A stretch of 64,000 nt of DNA from an uncultured Spirochaetaceae bacterium (GCA_937875245.1 CALNCH010000036.1:6093-70092); one strand, 5' to 3'. Counted from the first letter of the stretch, positions 1 to 64,000 are shown. Notes: generated from the letters alone by a model not told the origin. A program made the numbers and translations.

Positions 1-177
1 TATATTCAGGATGAACAAGAGGAAATCGAAATAGATGACACTAAGGAAAACCTTCAACTTAAAATAAAAGAATACGTTGATGATATTGCTAAATATAATA
101 AAAGACAAAAGCAATATATCCTAAATGGTAATGCTTCGGTATGGGTTAGGATGAAAATATTACAACGTCAAAGTTAG
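1..177 (+). CDS. hypothetical protein, C-terminal fragment (5' end outside window)
   Basis: Frame 1 is open from base 1 to TAG 175-177 (...NASVWVRMKILQRQS*). Same strand as the following early genes. Confidence 0.5.
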   Translation, partial: YIQDEQEEIEIDDTKENLQLKIKEYVDDIAKYNKRQKQYILNGNASVWVRMKILQRQS

Positions 178-6664: not shown

Positions 6665-6738
6665 GGTTCATTAGCTCAGTTGGTTAGAGCAGGTCACTCA
6701 TAATGATCAGGTCCCAAGTTCGATCCTTGGATGAACCA
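6665..6738 (+). tRNA. tRNA, anticodon CAT (elongator Met or lysidine-modified Ile2 type)
   Basis: Hand-folded cloverleaf. Acceptor GGTTCAT/ATGAACC, D-arm GCTC-AGTTGGTTA-GAGC, anticodon arm GGTCA-CTCATAA-TGATC, T-arm CCAAG-TTCGATC-CTTGG, discriminator A. No encoded CCA. 1:72 is paired, so it is not initiator-like. Confidence 0.9.
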
Positions 6739-6758
6739 CTAAACTAAAAACTTATATT

Positions 6759-42673: not shown

Positions 42674-43543
42674 ATGGCTAAATATATTCCAAAACTAATA
42701 GAACCTTTACTAACATATGTACCTGATCAAACAGTACAAGATGCAGTAGAGATAGCAGGTAAGTTAGCAAGAGCTAAAATACTTTTCGACCAATTATATC
42801 CTAATAGGCCAAAGGTTGATAGGAATGGTCCACCAGATGCTTATGAAAATGAACAAGCAATAACAGAATATCCTTCACCTCTAAAGAAACACAGAACATA
42901 TTCAAGGATAGCACCTGATGGTTATGTTAGTGAACCACCAAGACAAAAATCAAGGTTAGATGGCGATACAAATCAAGGTTCATTTAATAACGTACTCTTG
43001 GAACAAGAAGTTATAACGTTTGTAGATTTAGATTTCGATGAGGATAAACATGTAGACTCTAGAAGGACAAATAGATTAACCATACCTTTCATACCAAAAG
43101 AATTAGACTATACACCACAGTCTAATTTTGTTGGGATAGCAAGTTTCGGAAGGAATAACCCTTTCTACCAATACACTGGATCAGAAGATACATTAACTTT
43201 CGAAATAGATTGGTTTTCAAATACATTTAACAGAGAAGATGTTATTACCAATTGTAGATGGATAGAAGCTTTAAGTAAAGCAGATGGATATGATGATGTA
43301 CCACACAGGGTAATGTTAAATTGGGGATCAGAAAACAAACTATTCTTAGATGAAGTTTGGTTAGTGGTAGCAGCACCATATAGGTTAAGCCAATTTCAAA
43401 GAGCGTATAGAGACCCGGATGGAGAAGTTAAATCATTACATTTATTACCCCAACAGGCTTATCAAACAGTTACATTAAAAAGGGTAACTAAAGAAAACCG
43501 AACTATCAAACAAATAATTGGAAACTTAGGCTATGTTAGATAA
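42674..43543 (+). CDS. tail/baseplate-associated protein (positional analogue of Mu gp43)
   Basis: 289-aa ORF between the tape measure and LysM genes. Role from position only. Confidence 0.5.
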   Translation: MAKYIPKLIEPLLTYVPDQTVQDAVEIAGKLARAKILFDQLYPNRPKVDRNGPPDAYENEQAITEYPSPLKKHRTYSRIAPDGYVSEPPRQKSRLDGDTNQGSFNNVLLEQEVITFVDLDFDEDKHVDSRRTNRLTIPFIPKELDYTPQSNFVGIASFGRNNPFYQYTGSEDTLTFEIDWFSNTFNREDVITNCRWIEALSKADGYDDVPHRVMLNWGSENKLFLDEVWLVVAAPYRLSQFQRAYRDPDGEVKSLHLLPQQAYQTVTLKRVTKENRTIKQIIGNLGYVR

Positions 43544-59151: not shown

Positions 59152-59771
59152 TGGACACAGTTACAGAAAGATTTAATAACGCTGGAAAGAATAGGCCTAT
59201 CATAAAGGACTATTCCGAGTTTATAGACCATTGTGATACTCTAAACAATAACATTGTTAATTATTATGAAAAGGTAATAGTAATGATAGAGTCTCAAAAA
59301 CTAACCGAAGAGATAATCCAAAAACATGATGAACAAATAAACCTACTATATGGAAATGCTTTTATATTATTAGGGTATATGGGTATTACAGAAGAAGATT
59401 TGGATATCACTGCAGATAAATACGTAACATCAATAGGACTGGCAGACTCAGCCCATTATATGGAAAGAGGATTTATCTTTGAAAGATTAAAACGTATAGC
59501 AGTAAAAGAGTTGATAAGCTTTGGATTAATACCAAACCCAAACTATCAAAAGTTCTTTGGTAATAGAACTATATTTTATAGTGATGCATACAGAGCCTGG
59601 ATAAAAGGTGAAATCTTAGATGTATTCACTAACATACAATATATCAGACAAAGTTTATTCCAGGAAAAAGATGAGGATCTATTGGGATTTGTTTTTGGGC
59701 TAATGATAACAATCAATATTTTATTAACAACAACAGAAACAAAGTTAGAGATACCATGGTCAGATATTTAG
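59151..59771 (+). CDS. hypothetical protein
   Basis: 206-aa ORF, first of four mutually overlapping genes leading into polA. Confidence 0.65.
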   Translation: MDTVTERFNNAGKNRPIIKDYSEFIDHCDTLNNNIVNYYEKVIVMIESQKLTEEIIQKHDEQINLLYGNAFILLGYMGITEEDLDITADKYVTSIGLADSAHYMERGFIFERLKRIAVKELISFGLIPNPNYQKFFGNRTIFYSDAYRAWIKGEILDVFTNIQYIRQSLFQEKDEDLLGFVFGLMITINILLTTTETKLEIPWSDI

Positions 59772-60622
59772 AGTTCGGAAACTCACAAGAAGCTTGGGAA
59801 GGTTTAAATGAATACTTCTTAAACAATGAAGAAGAGATATTAAGTAAAGGCTGCAGAAATGGCAGTCAACTTATTGCTTTCGATAATTTCATTAAAATAC
59901 GTAAAGCCTGGGTATTACCAGAAATGGATTTCGGAAACACATTTGGTTACAGATTACAGAAATGGACTGGATTAATAAATAACTACGTAAATCTTAATTA
60001 CCTAGATATCCTTAAATCACAAATCTTAGCTAAAGAAGGAGGTAGAAATCCAAATTACAATATATCAATGCAATTTGATAACAGTCATGGGCATGGTAAG
60101 AATTGCTTATTATCTCTAACATTCAGTAGAACACAAGAAACTGATATACCAATCGCTACATTCCATCTTAGATCATCTGAGATAACTAAAAGGCTCTTAT
60201 TGGATTTATTATTGGTACAACGTATAGCAGAATATATATATGGTGAAGATCAACACATAATGATAAAGATGTTATGTACTAATGTTTATCAAAGTGCTGA
60301 ATCATTCTGTATGTATGATATCTATAAACCCTTGAAAAGTGTATTAGAGGTAAAAGGTAAGAAAATGACTAACTGGCAAGAAAGGGTTTTAAGGATTACA
60401 GAAGAGTTTAAAACAATTGATCCTAAAAAAGTAACCTATAAAGTATTCCTTAGATCAGTTAATCAACTACAAGGACTTAAGGGTGACAAGCCAATGTATG
60501 CAAAAGATCTTCTACTATTTAAGAATGATATAGATTACCCAGAAGATTGCATAACAATAGCACAACGAAAAAAATATAAAAGAGCCTATAACAAAAAATT
60601 AAAGAAAGATGGTAAGATATAA
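59756..60622 (+). CDS. thymidylate synthase superfamily protein (divergent paralogue A)
   Basis: 288 aa. KNCLLSLTFSR...ATFHLRSSEITKRLLLDLLLVQRIAEYI lines up with the ThyA core PCHAFFQFY...[27 protein letters not shown]. The Cys and RS.(D/E) elements are retained. Confidence 0.5.
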   Translation: MVRYLEFGNSQEAWEGLNEYFLNNEEEILSKGCRNGSQLIAFDNFIKIRKAWVLPEMDFGNTFGYRLQKWTGLINNYVNLNYLDILKSQILAKEGGRNPNYNISMQFDNSHGHGKNCLLSLTFSRTQETDIPIATFHLRSSEITKRLLLDLLLVQRIAEYIYGEDQHIMIKMLCTNVYQSAESFCMYDIYKPLKSVLEVKGKKMTNWQERVLRITEEFKTIDPKKVTYKVFLRSVNQLQGLKGDKPMYAKDLLLFKNDIDYPEDCITIAQRKKYKRAYNKKLKKDGKI

Positions 60623-61463
60623 TGAAACCAAACCTAAGTTCTTAGGATTAAAAGATACTATAGCAGAAACAGTAAAATTATTTGAAGATAACTTTAAAGC
60701 TGAACCCATAAATGATTGGCAAGGTAATGAGGACTTTAATAACTTTACTATGGGTGTTATAAGAGACATTACATTAAAATTTAGTCCGGGATTTTATGCT
60801 AATGACCTAAACCAATTGGCATTAGTATGTGGGGCAGATATACCTTGGGCTGATGACCATTTCCAAGAACGTATATCAGGAACACCAACAAATCCTGGCG
60901 ACACTTATAAAAACTGGCCTTACCATTCAAACCTTGACAATAGTAATTACAAGGATGAAAAATTCTCTCATACATATCAGGAAAGGTTTTGGCCTAAAAT
61001 GGCTGGTAATGAGAATATACCACCAGGTTTTACAGTAGACCCAAATCACGGTATCCGTTATCAATATGGGGATTTAAATGATCTAATATCACAATTAGAA
61101 GATAAAATCCTAACACGACAAGCTTACTTACCAATCTGGTTTCCAGAAGATACTGGGGCTAAAGGACGTAGAGTACCTTGTACTCTTGGATACTATTTTT
61201 ATATAAAACCAGAAGATTTAAGTATTCATCTAATATACACCATTAGAAGTTGTGATCTTTACCGACACTTCAGAAATGATATTTATTTAACAACTAGATT
61301 ACTTATACATATCTATGATATATTAAAAACTAGCCATCCTAACCTACAATTAGGCACAGTTAAAATGGATATCTATAATCTTCATCGTTTTTCTAATGAC
61401 AAATACATGTTTGACAAAAAAGAAAAAAAGATAAAACTATGGCAAAACAATTTAATAGAATAA
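60609..61463 (+). CDS. thymidylate synthase superfamily protein (paralogue B; dNMP C5-methyl/hydroxymethyl-transferase type)
   Basis: 284 aa. RQAYLPIWFPED...RVPCTLGYYFYI...LIYTIRSCDLYRHFRNDIYLTTRLLIHI lines up with ThyA RRIIVSAWN...APCHAFFQFYV...[25 protein letters not shown]. The N-terminal half is unlike canonical ThyA. Confidence 0.6.
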   Translation: MVRYNETKPKFLGLKDTIAETVKLFEDNFKAEPINDWQGNEDFNNFTMGVIRDITLKFSPGFYANDLNQLALVCGADIPWADDHFQERISGTPTNPGDTYKNWPYHSNLDNSNYKDEKFSHTYQERFWPKMAGNENIPPGFTVDPNHGIRYQYGDLNDLISQLEDKILTRQAYLPIWFPEDTGAKGRRVPCTLGYYFYIKPEDLSIHLIYTIRSCDLYRHFRNDIYLTTRLLIHIYDILKTSHPNLQLGTVKMDIYNLHRFSNDKYMFDKKEKKIKLWQNNLIE

Positions 61464-61873
61464 CTAGAGAACAAATGTTTATAGATATTGCCAAAACTAT
61501 TGCTAAACGGTCTACTTGCACAAGAAAACAAGTAGGCTGTGTTTTAGTAATAGATGGTAGAATAGTGGCCACAGGCTATAATGGAGTATTACCCGGAATA
61601 CCAGATGAAAATGGGATAGATGCCAATGGTAATTCAAGGACTGTACATGCAGAAGCTAATGCTATTGCCTTCTGTGCTAGAAAAGGAATATCAACAGAAA
61701 ATTGTATATTATATTGTACTTTACAACCTTGTGAAAAATGTGCCGAGCTAATCATTCAAGCTGGAATAGATGAAGTATACTATTTAGATGAGTACAGAGA
61801 TACAACCGGATTACAGGTTTTAAAACTAAGTAACGTAAAAACAGAAAAGATATGGGAAGCGTCTACAGAATAA
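61439..61873 (+). CDS. dCMP deaminase (zinc-dependent cytidine/deoxycytidylate deaminase fold)
   Basis: 144 aa. CTRKQVGCVLV..GRIVATGYNG; HAEANAI; LQPCEKCAELI (HAE...PCxxC). Confidence 0.88.
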   Translation: MAKQFNRITREQMFIDIAKTIAKRSTCTRKQVGCVLVIDGRIVATGYNGVLPGIPDENGIDANGNSRTVHAEANAIAFCARKGISTENCILYCTLQPCEKCAELIIQAGIDEVYYLDEYRDTTGLQVLKLSNVKTEKIWEASTE

Positions 61874-64000
61874 TAAAGACGGAAAAAGAATTAGATAGGC
61901 TCATACGATATTGTAAGCAAACTAAATATGTCCTGAGGTTTCAAAATCAATTGATGCATATTTAGTTTGAAACCTCAGGACATCCACATCATTCGCCACT
62001 AGGATATCCAACTATATTAGGTGTATCATTTCAACCAGGCTCATCTTGGATAATACCATTAGGACATTTCGATAGTCCATTTTATGACTTTGGGGTAAAA
62101 GAAAGTAAACAACCTTGGTTAAGAATACTTAAGAAATTTTCTAAAGAAGTATTAGAAGATAAATCTATAGTAAAGGTAGCATGGAATTTTAAATTCGAAT
62201 ACACCTGGTTAAAGAAATATGATTGTAAAATCTATGGTAGAGTATTTGATGGGATGTTGGCTAAATACCTTTTAAATGAAGAACGTCCAAATGACCTTAA
62301 ATCACAGGTATCAAAATATATACCTGAATTTGCAGGATATGAGGAGAACTACGAAGGTAGTAAATTACCGTGGGATGAAAAACCACTAGAAGGATTATCA
62401 AAATATTGTGGATTGGATACCGATAACACATTACGATTAATGATATTCTTTGAAAAACAATTAATAAGTAATAAATTTTATCACCTATTCAGAAACATGT
62501 TAATGATGGCATCATATGTATTGGGTGACTCTGAGTTTGAAGGTATTCCAATTGATGTCCCATACTTAGATGGTTTAGTTATTAAGTATCAAGGTTTAAT
62601 TCAAGAATGTGAGGATAAACTAAGAGCTAATAAATATATACGTAAGTTTGAGAAATGGCAATTTAATGAGAGATTAGAAAAGTTAATTACCAAAATTGAA
62701 CTAGAGATAGAAGAAATAGAGGAAGAGATAGAGAACTTAGATGATCCTAAAAAAATTAAAACCAAAAAGAAATCTATACAAACCAGAGAGGATAAAATTG
62801 ATAGATGGAGAGCTGGAGATTTCCTTACAACAAAAGCAGAGCAAGCTTTAAATGACCCCATTAATTTTGGATCACCCGGACAAATGGGAGCTCTATTCTT
62901 TACTTCAGAAAAAGGTTTCAATTTTCCTATTATAAAATACACCACTGATAAATGGAAAAATGAAACAGAAAATCCAAGTACAGATGAAGAGGTATTAATT
63001 GAATTAGAAAAAATTGATAAAACCGGGTTCTGTAAAGAATTATTAGAATACAGGGGATTAACTAAAATGTATTCTACTTTCGTAAAAGGTATTAGAGAAA
63101 AAGTATCATACGGTGAAAGAATACATGGACGATTTAATCTCCATCAAACTGTAACAGGTAGATTATCTTCTAATGATCCTAACTTACAACAAATTCCTCG
63201 GGATACCACATCATCCGATATCAAGAAAATGTTTGTACCACCTAAAGGGTATTTCTTATTACAGCTCGATTATTCTCAGGCTGAATTAAGGGTAATGGCT
63301 GCACAAGCTGGAGAAAAGACAATGATCAAATGGTTCAAAGAAGGAAAAGATATTCATATCATGTCAGCTTTAAAGAAATACCATGTTGAAGATGAATACG
63401 ATAGAATTAAGGAAATCTTGGATAAAGAGGATGAGAATGATCCAGAATTTAAAGTATGGAAAGTTAGGAGAAAGCAAGCTAAGACAATTAACTTCGGTAT
63501 CATCTATGGACAAGGGGCTAATAAGTTAGCTGGATCATTAGGATGTTCAGTTGATGAAGCAAAACAATTCTTAAAAGATTTCGATAAAACATTCCCTAAA
63601 GTAGCGTCATTCGTTAAGAAGCAACATGCTTTAGCAAATGAAAATGCATATGTTAAAAATGTATTCGGAAGAAAGAGAAGACTTTGGGATGTTGATTCAG
63701 ATAATAATGCCTTAGTAGCACAAGCTTTACGCCAATCTGTTAATGCTCCTATTCAAGGGGCAGCTTCTGATTACACATTATTTTCATCTATCTTAATATG
63801 GGAAAAATCATTACATGCTAAAGGCATAAAGTTTGATAAATTAACTAATGATATGTTAAATATTTATTCTAATGATCCTGATGTATTACTTATAGATTTA
63901 CCTCAGGCCTACACTGTACATGATTCACTTGGTTTCTTTATAAAACCAGAAGCAATTCACAACACAGTACCTAAATTATTAAAAATATGTAGTAACCCTG
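61852..64000 (+). CDS. DNA polymerase, family A (3'-5' exo + pol domains), interrupted by in-frame TAG 61963-61965; 3' end outside window
   Basis: Absent from the ORF track because it runs off the window. One frame reads MGSVYRIIKTEKELDRLIRYCKQTKYVLRFQNQLMHI*FETSGHPHH... It continues through WNFKFE (ExoII-like), YCGLD (ExoIII), DYSQAELRV (motif A), RRKQAKTINFGIIYG (motif B) and TVHDS (motif C). Confidence 0.92.
61928..61983. repeat. perfect 18-bp inverted repeat with 20-nt loop inside polA
   Basis: ATGTCCTGAGGTTTCAAA (61928-61945) is the exact reverse complement of TTTGAAACCTCAGGACAT (61966-61983). The loop ATCAATTGATGCATATTTAG contains a 10-nt palindrome and the TAG. Confidence 0.95.

What the first reader, a model, noticed from the sequence alone, without database searches (positions are those of the whole stretch)
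61928..61983. Perfect 18-bp hairpin carrying an in-frame TAG sits exactly on the ExoI (DxE) motif of the family-A DNA polymerase
What the sequence shows:
- The polymerase ORF starts at ATG 61852 (MGSVYRIIKTEKELDRLIRYCKQTKYVLRFQNQLMHI) and hits TAG at 61963-61965.
- The same frame then stays open to the window end. It reads through FETSGH, ExoII-like WNFKFE, ExoIII YCGLD and pol motifs A, B and C.
- 61928-61945 is the exact reverse complement of 61966-61983. The 3' arm encodes FETSGH.
- The 20-nt loop holds the palindrome ATCAATTGAT and the stop codon.
- The catalytic Asp expected before FET is missing in frame. A GAT does lie at 61953-61955, but it is out of frame and 10 nt upstream of TTT.
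- Removing 61936-61952 (17 nt, itself the reverse complement of the downstream coding sequence) and 61956-61965 (10 nt) deletes 27 nt in frame. The result reads KYVLDFETSGH, with the same spacing as Klenow VFAFDTETDS.

So an essential gene appears to carry a 27-nt, stop-containing, hairpin-forming inverted duplication at its proofreading site.

Possible explanations:
1. Translational bypassing as in T4 gene 60 or the mitochondrial byp elements. UUU 61939 and UUU 61966 are a matched take-off/landing pair 27 nt apart and would give YVLRFETSG.
2. A small element excised at the RNA or DNA level.
3. A quasipalindrome template-switch mutation that leaves an exo-dead or N-terminally truncated polymerase. 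The next in-frame ATG is near 62254.
4. A fold-back amplification or assembly artefact.
Basis: partly seen in the sequence, partly recalled or inferred. Interest (0 to 1): 0.88.

Follow-up and report, generated by a model that had tools for sequence, protein, structure and literature searches.

The report
Assembly-gap fold-back artefact in polymerase gene
The stop-carrying hairpin in this phage's DNA polymerase gene is almost certainly not a real molecule: it appears where two assembled pieces were butted together across a gap, and one piece begins with a back-to-front copy of the gene's own sequence.

Summary
The bases are as described: an exact 18-nt inverted repeat, a 20-nt loop and an in-frame TAG in a family-A polymerase gene.

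Three results overturn the reading.

1. The reverse complement of 61930-61969 encodes QTKYASIDFETSG. That is the "missing" ExoI motif, identical to the closest homologues. It differs from their DNA only at three synonymous third positions.
2. All 119 full-length homologues read ...Y[AC]S.D[FY]E... with no insert. The window carries 24 extra nt (not 27).
3. The source record (GCA_036848115.1, DAIUKR010000001.1) has a run of 10 N exactly between window 61929 and 61930. This is the only gap in the window's part of the record, and the window has it closed up. An independent MEGAHIT contig, 100% identical, ends at 61919.

So the left arm straddles a scaffold gap. The downstream contig begins with a 40-nt fold-back copy of the true sequence, joined at a TTTG microhomology.

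Best explanation: a snap-back or inverted chimera at a low-coverage contig end, plus removal of the N run. The real gene most likely reads CKQTKYASIDFETSGH.

Bypassing, an excised element and a real pseudogene are not supported. Interest is low. Read mapping or PCR would settle it.

The parts
61852..61929 (+). Genuine 5' end of the polA coding sequence (MGSVYRIIKTEKELDRLIRYCKQTKY), the last bases of the upstream contig ('contig A')
   Evidence: The ORF start overlaps the dCMP deaminase gene, as it does in L001, L002 and L003. The 26 residues are identical to P0001 and P0122. Record L004 runs uninterrupted up to this point.
61929..61930 (.). Position of the 10-N scaffold gap in the source record (GCA_036848115.1 DAIUKR010000001.1, L004 10492-10501). 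The gap is closed up in the window.
   Evidence: L004 reads ...CAAACTAAATAT NNNNNNNNNN GTCCTGAGGTTTC.... The record-to-window offset is a constant 6092 at four points, and L006, L007 and L009 contain no N, so this is the only gap. ENA MEGAHIT contig k119_126619, 100% identical, ends at 61919.
61930..61969 (-). Fold-back block: the first 40 nt of the downstream contig ('contig B'). It is the reverse complement of the true coding sequence CAAACTAAATATGCATCAATTGATTTTGAAACCTCAGGAC, which encodes QTKYASIDFETSG including the ExoI Asp-x-Glu.
   Evidence: The minus-strand ORF 61922-62011 reads ...RFQTKYASIDFETSGHI. It matches L001 and L003 at 37 of 40 nt, and the three differences are synonymous third-codon positions in the reverse-complement frame.
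61966..61969 (+). TTTG microhomology at the single novel (chimeric) junction. It is both the reverse complement of CAAA at the start of the copied block and the start of TTTGAAACC (Phe-Glu-Thr).
   Evidence: Decomposition of the sequence. The last 10 nt of the block pair 8/10 with CAAAATCAAT 8 nt upstream, which is a native quasi-palindrome (I1: 24-nt arms, 92% complementary).
61966..64000 (+). Genuine polA coding sequence from Phe31 (FETSGH...) onward. It runs off the window.
   Evidence: Open frame to 64000 with Pfam DNA_pol_A_exo1 and DNA_pol_A. 91% amino-acid identity to P0001.
61963..61965 (+). The 'in-frame TAG'. It is an artefactual stop formed by the reverse complement of ...A CTA A... 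in codons ACT-AAA (Thr-Lys) of the true gene.
61928..61983 (.). Only 16 of the 18 left-arm bases belong to contig B; the first 2 (AT) come from contig A.

Best explanation
The feature is an assembly artefact, not a property of the phage genome.

The source record is a two-contig scaffold. Contig A ends at window 61929, inside polA codon 26/27. Contig B begins at 61930. The submitters placed 10 N between them, and the window was made with the N run removed, so two unrelated contig ends now abut.

Contig B itself starts with a fold-back. Its first 40 nt are the reverse complement of the true local sequence (polA codons 22-35). They join through a 4-nt TTTG/CAAA microhomology to the forward sequence starting at Phe31.

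This is the signature of a snap-back (inverted) chimeric molecule. A bottom-strand 3' end ...ATTTAGTTTG folded back onto CAAAATCAAT 8 nt upstream (8 of 10 bases pair) and was extended on its own strand. This could have happened during amplification or end repair. A read from such a molecule was kept at a low-coverage contig end.

The real gene most likely reads ...TGTAAGCAAACTAAATATGCATCAATTGATTTTGAAACCTCAGGACAT..., giving CKQTKYASIDFETSGH. That is 24 nt shorter than the window, with no stop and no hairpin.

Shown: the N run, the contig ends, the inverted block, its coding content, and its absence from relatives.
Inferred: the molecular origin of the fold-back and the low coverage.
For: 1. L004, the deposited record, is identical to the window over 12.5 kb except for a 10-N run exactly at 61929|61930. 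It is the only gap in the window's part of the record.
2. A separate MEGAHIT assembly (ERZ27283054), 100% identical, also breaks here; contig k119_126619 ends at 61919. That assembly is fragmented elsewhere too, at 43375 and 62830, which suggests low coverage.
3. The reverse complement of 61930-61969 translates to QTKYASIDFETSG, identical to residues 22-34 of P0001 and P0122. It differs from L001 and L003 DNA at 3 of 40 positions, all synonymous third positions in that frame. The block is therefore the phage's own selected coding sequence, turned around.
4. All 119 full-length homologues have D[FY]E at about residue 30 with no insert. The DNA alignment shows a clean 24-nt excess in the window only.
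5. Once junction 1 is recognised as the gap, only one novel junction remains. It has a 4-nt microhomology within an 8/10 quasi-palindrome. This matches described inverted chimeras: more than 85% are inverted and prime at 2-21 nt complementarities (PMC1855051). It also matches hairpin-primed palindromic read ends (PMC3946424).
6. A real 18-bp stem would not break de Bruijn assemblies at k of 21 or more (inference), yet two assemblies break here.
7. The 37-aa ORF that the closed-up junction creates is not on record in any public assembly.
Against: - No reads are available, so the fold-back junction's read support, the library type (amplified or not) and the true gap content are not seen directly.
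- The intact allele of this exact strain was not found elsewhere; there were 0 hits in IMG/VR and JGI contigs.
- The contig ends (position 12 of the 42-nt native stretch CAAACT...GGACAT for the NCBI contig, position 2 for the MEGAHIT contig, and 40 nt of left arm on contig B) do not fit a simple k-mer branch model for common k values. I had to invoke low coverage and read ends.
- The native sequence has no stable hairpin (-1.8 kcal/mol, z = 0.8), so the snap-back would have been transient.
- That the window was made by stripping the N run is an inference from the 10-nt length difference.
Confidence: 0.86

Rival explanations
1. This is a real in-vivo double template-switch (inverted duplication) mutation at the native quasi-palindrome. 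It leaves a polA pseudogene, or an N-terminally truncated, exonuclease-less polymerase starting at ATG 62254. It would be carried by all or part of the phage population sampled.
For: - The fold-back junction must exist in at least some reads for contig B to start as it does.
- A native 8/10 quasi-palindrome is present to nucleate strand switching.
- Closing the gap with zero bases gives a 24-nt, in-frame change with ATG and TTTG microhomologies.
- Two assemblies break here, which could reflect a mixed population.
Against: - Junction 1 coincides exactly with the only N gap in the record, so no contiguous sequence supports it.
- A clonal 56-nt hairpin would assemble without a break (inference).
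- The stop would inactivate the phage's only replicative polymerase, in an otherwise intact genome whose other genes are open.
- The truncated product would lack ExoI and ExoII.
- No relative carries it.
Confidence: 0.08
2. This is a hairpin-loop flip switch. The 20-nt loop between the 18-bp arms inverts (as small hairpin loops do in organelle genomes). That would toggle polA between an OFF state (TAG, as in the window) and an ON state encoding ...KYVLRFQTKYASIDFETSGH... with an 8-residue insert.
For: Inverting only 61946-61965 restores an open frame with the ExoI motif. Mixed orientations could in principle break assemblies.
Against: - It needs the left arm to be real, but the arm spans the N gap.
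- The ON form would carry an 8-residue insert (VLRFQTKY) that none of the 119 homologues has.
- A 20-nt segment is too short for known invertases (established knowledge).
- No recombinase family appears among the precomputed Pfam hits of the called genes.
Confidence: 0.02
3. This is programmed translational bypassing (T4 gene 60 or byp-like), or removal of a small element at the RNA or DNA level, restoring a full-length polymerase.
For: UUU 61939-61941 and UUU 61966-61968 are identical codons 27 nt apart, with a stem-loop and a stop between them.
Against: - The matched codons are a trivial consequence of the inverted repeat.
- The codon after the proposed take-off is CAA, not a stop.
- The product YVLRFETSG lacks the catalytic Asp and differs from the conserved YASIDFETSG.
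- The 'element' is the gene's own sequence reversed.
- It is not conserved in any relative.
- The DNA is not contiguous in the record.
Confidence: 0.01

Closest known systems
Inverted (fold-back) chimeras of strand-displacement amplification (Lasken & Stockwell 2007, PMC1855051)
   Same: Both show a sequence that runs into the reverse complement of nearby sequence from the same molecule. Both are joined at a short complementary stretch (here 4 nt perfect, 8/10 extended; the paper reports 2-21 nt). Both are intramolecular.
   Different: Whether this sample was amplified by MDA is unknown. Here the chimera is seen only as the first 40 nt of an assembled contig, not in reads.
Hairpin-primed interrupted palindromes at read ends from library preparation (Star et al. 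2014, PMC3946424)
   Same: In both, a single-strand 3' end folds back and is extended on its own 5' part. The result is reverse-complementary sequence separated by a short loop.
   Different: That artefact was described for degraded or ancient DNA and particular ligation protocols. The sample type here is unknown.
Scaffold gaps (runs of N) in deposited metagenome-assembled viral genomes
   Same: A 10-N run joins two contigs whose true junction was not assembled. The sequences flanking such gaps are often unreliable (my own knowledge).
   Different: Here the N run was additionally removed before the window was read. That turned a declared gap into an apparent contiguous hairpin with a stop codon.
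T4 gene 60 translational bypassing
   Same: Identical codons flank a stop-containing stretch that can form a stem-loop.
   Different: There is no stop directly after the take-off codon. The product does not restore the conserved motif. The feature is not conserved in relatives. The DNA is not contiguous.
Quasipalindrome-associated template-switch mutations (Ripley-type; my own knowledge)
   Same: A native imperfect inverted repeat (8/10, 8-nt spacer) lies at the site, and the result is a perfected, longer palindrome.
   Different: Classic events correct a few bases within the quasi-palindrome. Here 39 nt would be copied, and one of the two required junctions is an assembly gap.

Membership tests
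Fold-back / inverted chimera artefact at a contig end | The anomalous block is the exact reverse complement of genuine sequence lying immediately adjacent | tested here: met
   61930-61969 is the reverse complement of the native coding sequence. Its ends match 61918-61929 and 61966-61983 perfectly.
Fold-back / inverted chimera artefact at a contig end | A single novel junction, at a short microhomology | tested here: met
   The only non-gap junction is ...ATTTAG TTTG|AAACC..., with a 4-nt overlap inside an 8/10 quasi-palindrome. The other 'junction' is the N run.
Fold-back / inverted chimera artefact at a contig end | It lies at a contig terminus or assembly gap | tested here: met
   10 N at L004 10492-10501, equal to window 61929|61930. 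The MEGAHIT contig ends at 61919.
Fold-back / inverted chimera artefact at a contig end | It is absent from independent assemblies of close relatives | tested here: met
   L001 and L003 (91% and 88% nt identity) and 119 of 119 full-length homologues lack it.
Fold-back / inverted chimera artefact at a contig end | The junction is carried by few or aberrant reads while normal reads support the uninterrupted sequence | not testable with these tools
   No read data are available.
Programmed translational bypassing (T4 gene 60 type) | Matched take-off and landing codons | tested here: met
   UUU 61939-61941 and UUU 61966-61968. This is trivially expected inside an inverted repeat.
Programmed translational bypassing (T4 gene 60 type) | A stop codon immediately 3' of the take-off codon | tested here: not met
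   The next codon is CAA (61942-61944). TAG lies 21 nt further on.
Programmed translational bypassing (T4 gene 60 type) | The bypass restores the conserved protein sequence | tested here: not met
   The product would be YVLRFETSG. Homologues read Y[AC]S.D[FY]E, and the Asp would be lost.
Programmed translational bypassing (T4 gene 60 type) | The coding gap is a contiguous part of the gene in genomic DNA | tested here: not met
   The record has an assembly gap inside it.
Family A DNA polymerase with 3'-5' exonuclease domain (the host gene) | DNA_pol_A and DNA_pol_A_exo1 domains | tested here: met
   On the repaired protein, Pfam gives PF00476 at E = 2.4e-80 (residues 317-695) and PF01612 at E = 9.5e-15 (residues 5-196). 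The exonuclease region matches Klenow fragment at E = 1.6e-9.
Family A DNA polymerase with 3'-5' exonuclease domain (the host gene) | ExoI Asp-x-Glu motif in frame | tested here: inconclusive
   It is not in frame on the + strand of the window as given. It is present (IDFETSG) on the reverse complement of 61930-61969 and in the repaired gene.
Site-specific invertible DNA switch | An invertible segment of workable length, with a cognate recombinase | tested here: not met
   The segment is 20 nt. No recombinase or invertase family appears among the precomputed Pfam hits of called genes across the record.
Quasipalindrome template-switch mutation (in vivo) | A pre-existing imperfect inverted repeat at the site | tested here: met
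   CAAACTAAAT and ATTGATTTTG, 8/10 complementary with an 8-nt spacer in the native sequence.
Quasipalindrome template-switch mutation (in vivo) | Both switch junctions are present in contiguous genomic sequence | tested here: not met
   One junction is the 10-N gap.

The most novel reading that the evidence does not exclude
The fold-back junction might reflect real biology rather than library chemistry. A sub-population of phage genomes, or packaged replication by-products, could carry an inverted duplication at the native quasi-palindrome in the ExoI-coding region of polA. The result would be a proofreading-deficient or defective variant. It could even be a hairpin whose 20-nt loop can flip to restore the frame. 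This would explain why two assemblies break at the same spot.
Probability: 0.06. Interest if true: 0.55.

Novelty: not a real feature. Interest (0 to 1): 0.06.

Why it matters
As biology it matters little. The polymerase gene of this uncultured ~77-kb marine-type myovirus is most likely intact and ordinary.

As quality control it matters more:
- A declared 10-N scaffold gap was silently closed when the window was prepared. Together with a fold-back contig end, this created a convincing 'recoding signal' in an essential gene.
- Windows should keep or flag N runs.
- Perfect inverted repeats whose loop encodes the missing conserved motif on the opposite strand should be treated as fold-back chimeras until reads say otherwise.
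- The public annotation of this record (a 632-aa 'truncated' polymerase, P0121) is probably wrong for the same reason.

Tried and rejected
- Megablast of 61400-64000 against GenBank phages found no match.
- Exact-DNA scans of IMG/VR and JGI metagenome contigs all gave 0 hits. The queries were the closed-up junction, the predicted intact allele (degenerate at the 3 synonymous sites) and the fold-back junction. So there is neither independent confirmation of the hairpin nor an intact copy of this exact strain.
- I tried to retrieve the MEGAHIT contig covering 61920-62829, to see what lies left of the fold-back.
  - P0121 is not on record.
  - The 37-aa ORF is not on record.
  - P0127 gave only a contig starting at 62830.
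- A literature search for the accessions found nothing, so the assembler and library type remain unknown.
- I tried to explain the contig ends with a simple de Bruijn branch model (true path plus chimeric path). The observed end positions would need k of about 41 for contig B and do not fit contig A. I fell back on low coverage and read ends.
- I considered a mobile element or MITE. The arm occurs nowhere else in the window.
- I considered an intron, an intein or a large inversion. The block is the local exon sequence reversed and is followed by forward exon sequence, which none of these predicts.
- The phmmer alignment to Klenow began at residue 47, so it did not itself align the ExoI motif. 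The Pfam exonuclease domain match does cover it.

Full report
**1. The observation**

- 61928-61945 (ATGTCCTGAGGTTTCAAA) is the exact reverse complement of 61966-61983.
- The 20-nt loop 61946-61965 (ATCAATTGATGCATATTTAG) holds the palindrome ATCAATTGAT and a TAG at 61963-61965.
- That TAG closes the 37-codon ORF starting at ATG 61852. The same frame then stays open to the window end.
- A second, nested perfect repeat also exists: 61918-61930 CAAACTAAATATG and 61957-61969.
- These are the only perfect inverted repeats of 13 nt or more with loops of 80 nt or less in the whole 64 kb.
- About 4e-4 such 18-mers are expected by chance, and the arm occurs nowhere else in the window.
- As single-stranded DNA the region folds at -19 kcal/mol, z = -6.8.

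The repeat is therefore not a chance event.

**2.

The ORF list for the minus strand shows 61922-62011 reading MDILVANDVDVLRFQTKYASIDFETSGHI. The 'missing' ExoI motif I-D-F-E-T-S-G is therefore present, on the opposite strand.

Define the 42-nt native stretch O = CAAACTAAATATGCATCAATTGATTTTGAAACCTCAGGACAT. Then window 61918-61983 (66 nt) breaks down as:
- O[1..13];
- then the reverse complement of O[1..39];
- then O[29..42].

The overlaps at the two joins are ATG and TTTG. Replacing the 66 nt by O removes 24 nt (not 27). The result is MGSVYRIIKTEKELDRLIRYCKQTKYASIDFETSGHPHH..., an uninterrupted polymerase.

Pfam places DNA_pol_A_exo1 on residues 5-196 of this repaired protein (E = 9.5e-15) and DNA_pol_A on residues 317-695 (E = 2.4e-80).

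**3. Relatives**

A search with the repaired protein found thousands of homologues.
- The two closest are P0001 (91% identity; contig L001) and P0122 (contig L003, 88% nt identity to the window over 12.4 kb).
- Of the 120 homologues longer than 600 aa that I checked, 115 have DFE and 4 have DYE at about residue 30. None has an insert. The one exception is P0121, the 632-aa truncated product annotated from this very record.
- At the DNA level L001 and L003 read CAAACTAAATATGCCTCAATTGACTTTGAAACCTCTGGAC. The reverse complement of window 61930-61969 differs from this at only 3 of 40 positions.
- All three differences are synonymous third-codon positions: GCA/GCC Ala, GAT/GAC Asp, TCA/TCT Ser.

The inverted block is therefore this phage's own, selectively constrained coding sequence, turned around.

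**4. Provenance**

An exact-protein look-up of the neighbouring dCMP deaminase found the source record, NCBI GCA_036848115.1, DAIUKR010000001.1, 77,417 nt (L004).
- L004 is identical to the window over 12.5 kb except for one 10-nt insertion, which is a run of 10 N. It reads ...CAAACTAAATAT NNNNNNNNNN GTCCTGAGGTTTCAAAATC....
- The N run falls between window 61929 and 61930, inside the left arm of the 'hairpin'.
- The window contains no N, so it appears to be the record with the N run removed.
- The record-to-window offset is 6092 at window 4068, 24076, 42674 and 61439, and the other fetched stretches contain no N. This is therefore the only gap in the window's part of the record.
- A separate MEGAHIT assembly (ENA ERZ27283054) has a contig, k119_126619, that is 100% identical to the window and ends at 61919. 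Other contigs of that assembly break at window 43375 and start at 62830. That fragmentation suggests modest coverage.
- The record annotates only a 632-aa polymerase starting at the ATG at window 62254.

**5. Anatomy and mechanism**

Once 61929|61930 is recognised as a scaffold gap, only one novel junction remains, and it lies in contig B. After 40 nt of reverse-complemented gene sequence (61930-61969), the sequence turns into the forward gene at TTTG|AAACC.

The last 10 nt of the block (ATTTAGTTTG) can pair 8/10 with CAAAATCAAT, 8 nt upstream. This reflects a weak quasi-palindrome in the native gene (I1). Everything after the junction is then the complement of what precedes the loop.

This is what a snap-back event produces. 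A single-strand 3' end folds onto its own strand and is extended. Such products are well described:
- In MDA, more than 85% of chimeras are inverted, are mostly intramolecular, and prime at 2-21 nt complementarities (PMC1855051).
- In library preparation from single-stranded or damaged DNA, hairpin-primed extension gives interrupted palindromes at read ends (PMC3946424).

I infer that a read from such a molecule was retained at a low-coverage contig end. The scaffolder then linked contigs A and B with 10 N, and removing the N run created the apparent stop-carrying hairpin.

The real sequence across the gap is most likely contig A + GCATCAATTGATTTTG + AAACC..., all of which can be read from the reverse complement of 61942-61957.

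**6. Rival explanations**

*Real double template-switch mutation (confidence about 0.08).* It cannot be excluded without reads. It requires that the only assembly gap in a 77-kb record falls by chance exactly on one of its two junctions. It also requires that a 56-nt hairpin broke two assemblies, which k-mers of 21 or more would not do. Finally, it requires a phage with otherwise intact genes to carry a stop in its only replicative polymerase.

*Loop-flip switch.* Inverting 61946-61965 alone does restore a frame...KYVLRFQTKYASIDFETSGH.... But it needs the left arm to be real, it would add eight residues that no homologue has, and no recombinase is evident.

*Translational bypassing.* It fails three of its defining features:
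- there is no stop after the take-off codon;
- the product lacks the catalytic Asp;
- the feature is not conserved in relatives.

*Mobile elements, introns and large inversions.* These do not predict a reversed copy of the local exon followed by the forward exon.

**7. Limits**

- I had no reads.
- The assembler and library type are unknown.
- Neither the intact allele of this strain nor a second copy of the hairpin was found in IMG/VR or JGI contigs.
- The small MEGAHIT contig that would show what lies left of the fold-back could not be retrieved.
- The contig end positions do not fit a simple k-mer branch model, so low coverage is an inference.

**8. Verdict**

Novelty: not a real feature. 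Interest: 0.06. Its main value is as a warning about stripped N runs and fold-back contig ends.

Noticed in passing
L004 19309-19887 and L009 1-1125 (record ends, outside the window): The 77,417-nt record closes on itself. Its last gene is the first 193 residues of an SMC_N/AAA_23 (gp46/SbcC-like) protein, and its first gene continues that protein (compare the 615-aa L003 homologue). The record is therefore a two-contig scaffold of an essentially complete, circularly assembling genome, broken in this gene and at the polA gap.
   Followed up: partly
window 59756-60622 and 60609-61463: Two overlapping genes lie just upstream of the dCMP deaminase. The second has a sub-threshold thymidylate synthase match (PF00303, 23.7 bits against a cut-off of 24.3). 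The first has no Pfam match. The two are barely similar to each other (BLASTP E = 0.04). With the deaminase, a faint ThyX-like hit and a dNK-like kinase downstream, this could be a pyrimidine-modification module.
   Followed up: partly
L004 15234-15881; L001 5744-6394; absent at the same place in L002 and L003: A GIY-YIG gene sits between the recA/uvsX-like gene and the 5'-3' exonuclease gene in some relatives but not others. This is the pattern of a free-standing homing endonuclease.
   Followed up: no
Homologues P0007, P0017, P0082 (1,049-1,075 aa): Some PolA homologues of this clade carry intein (PF14890) and HNH (PF13392) domains. This polymerase family does host genuine mobile insertions, but in the polymerase domain, not at ExoI.
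   Followed up: no
window 43375 and 62830: The independent MEGAHIT assembly (ERZ27283054), 100% identical to the record, also has contig ends at these positions, where the NCBI record is continuous. This indicates generally fragile (probably low) coverage of this phage in the sample.
   Followed up: partly
window 61852-61873: The polA start codon lies 22 nt inside the 3' end of the dCMP deaminase gene. The same overlap is kept in L001, L002 and L003.
   Followed up: no
window 6665-6739: A single tRNA-Met (CAT) gene is the only tRNA in the window.
   Followed up: no
L003 10001-10435 versus window 61439-61873: The dCMP deaminase protein is 100% identical between the window and L003, although the two genomes are only about 88% identical in DNA over 12.4 kb. 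This indicates unusually strong constraint or recent exchange of this gene.
   Followed up: no
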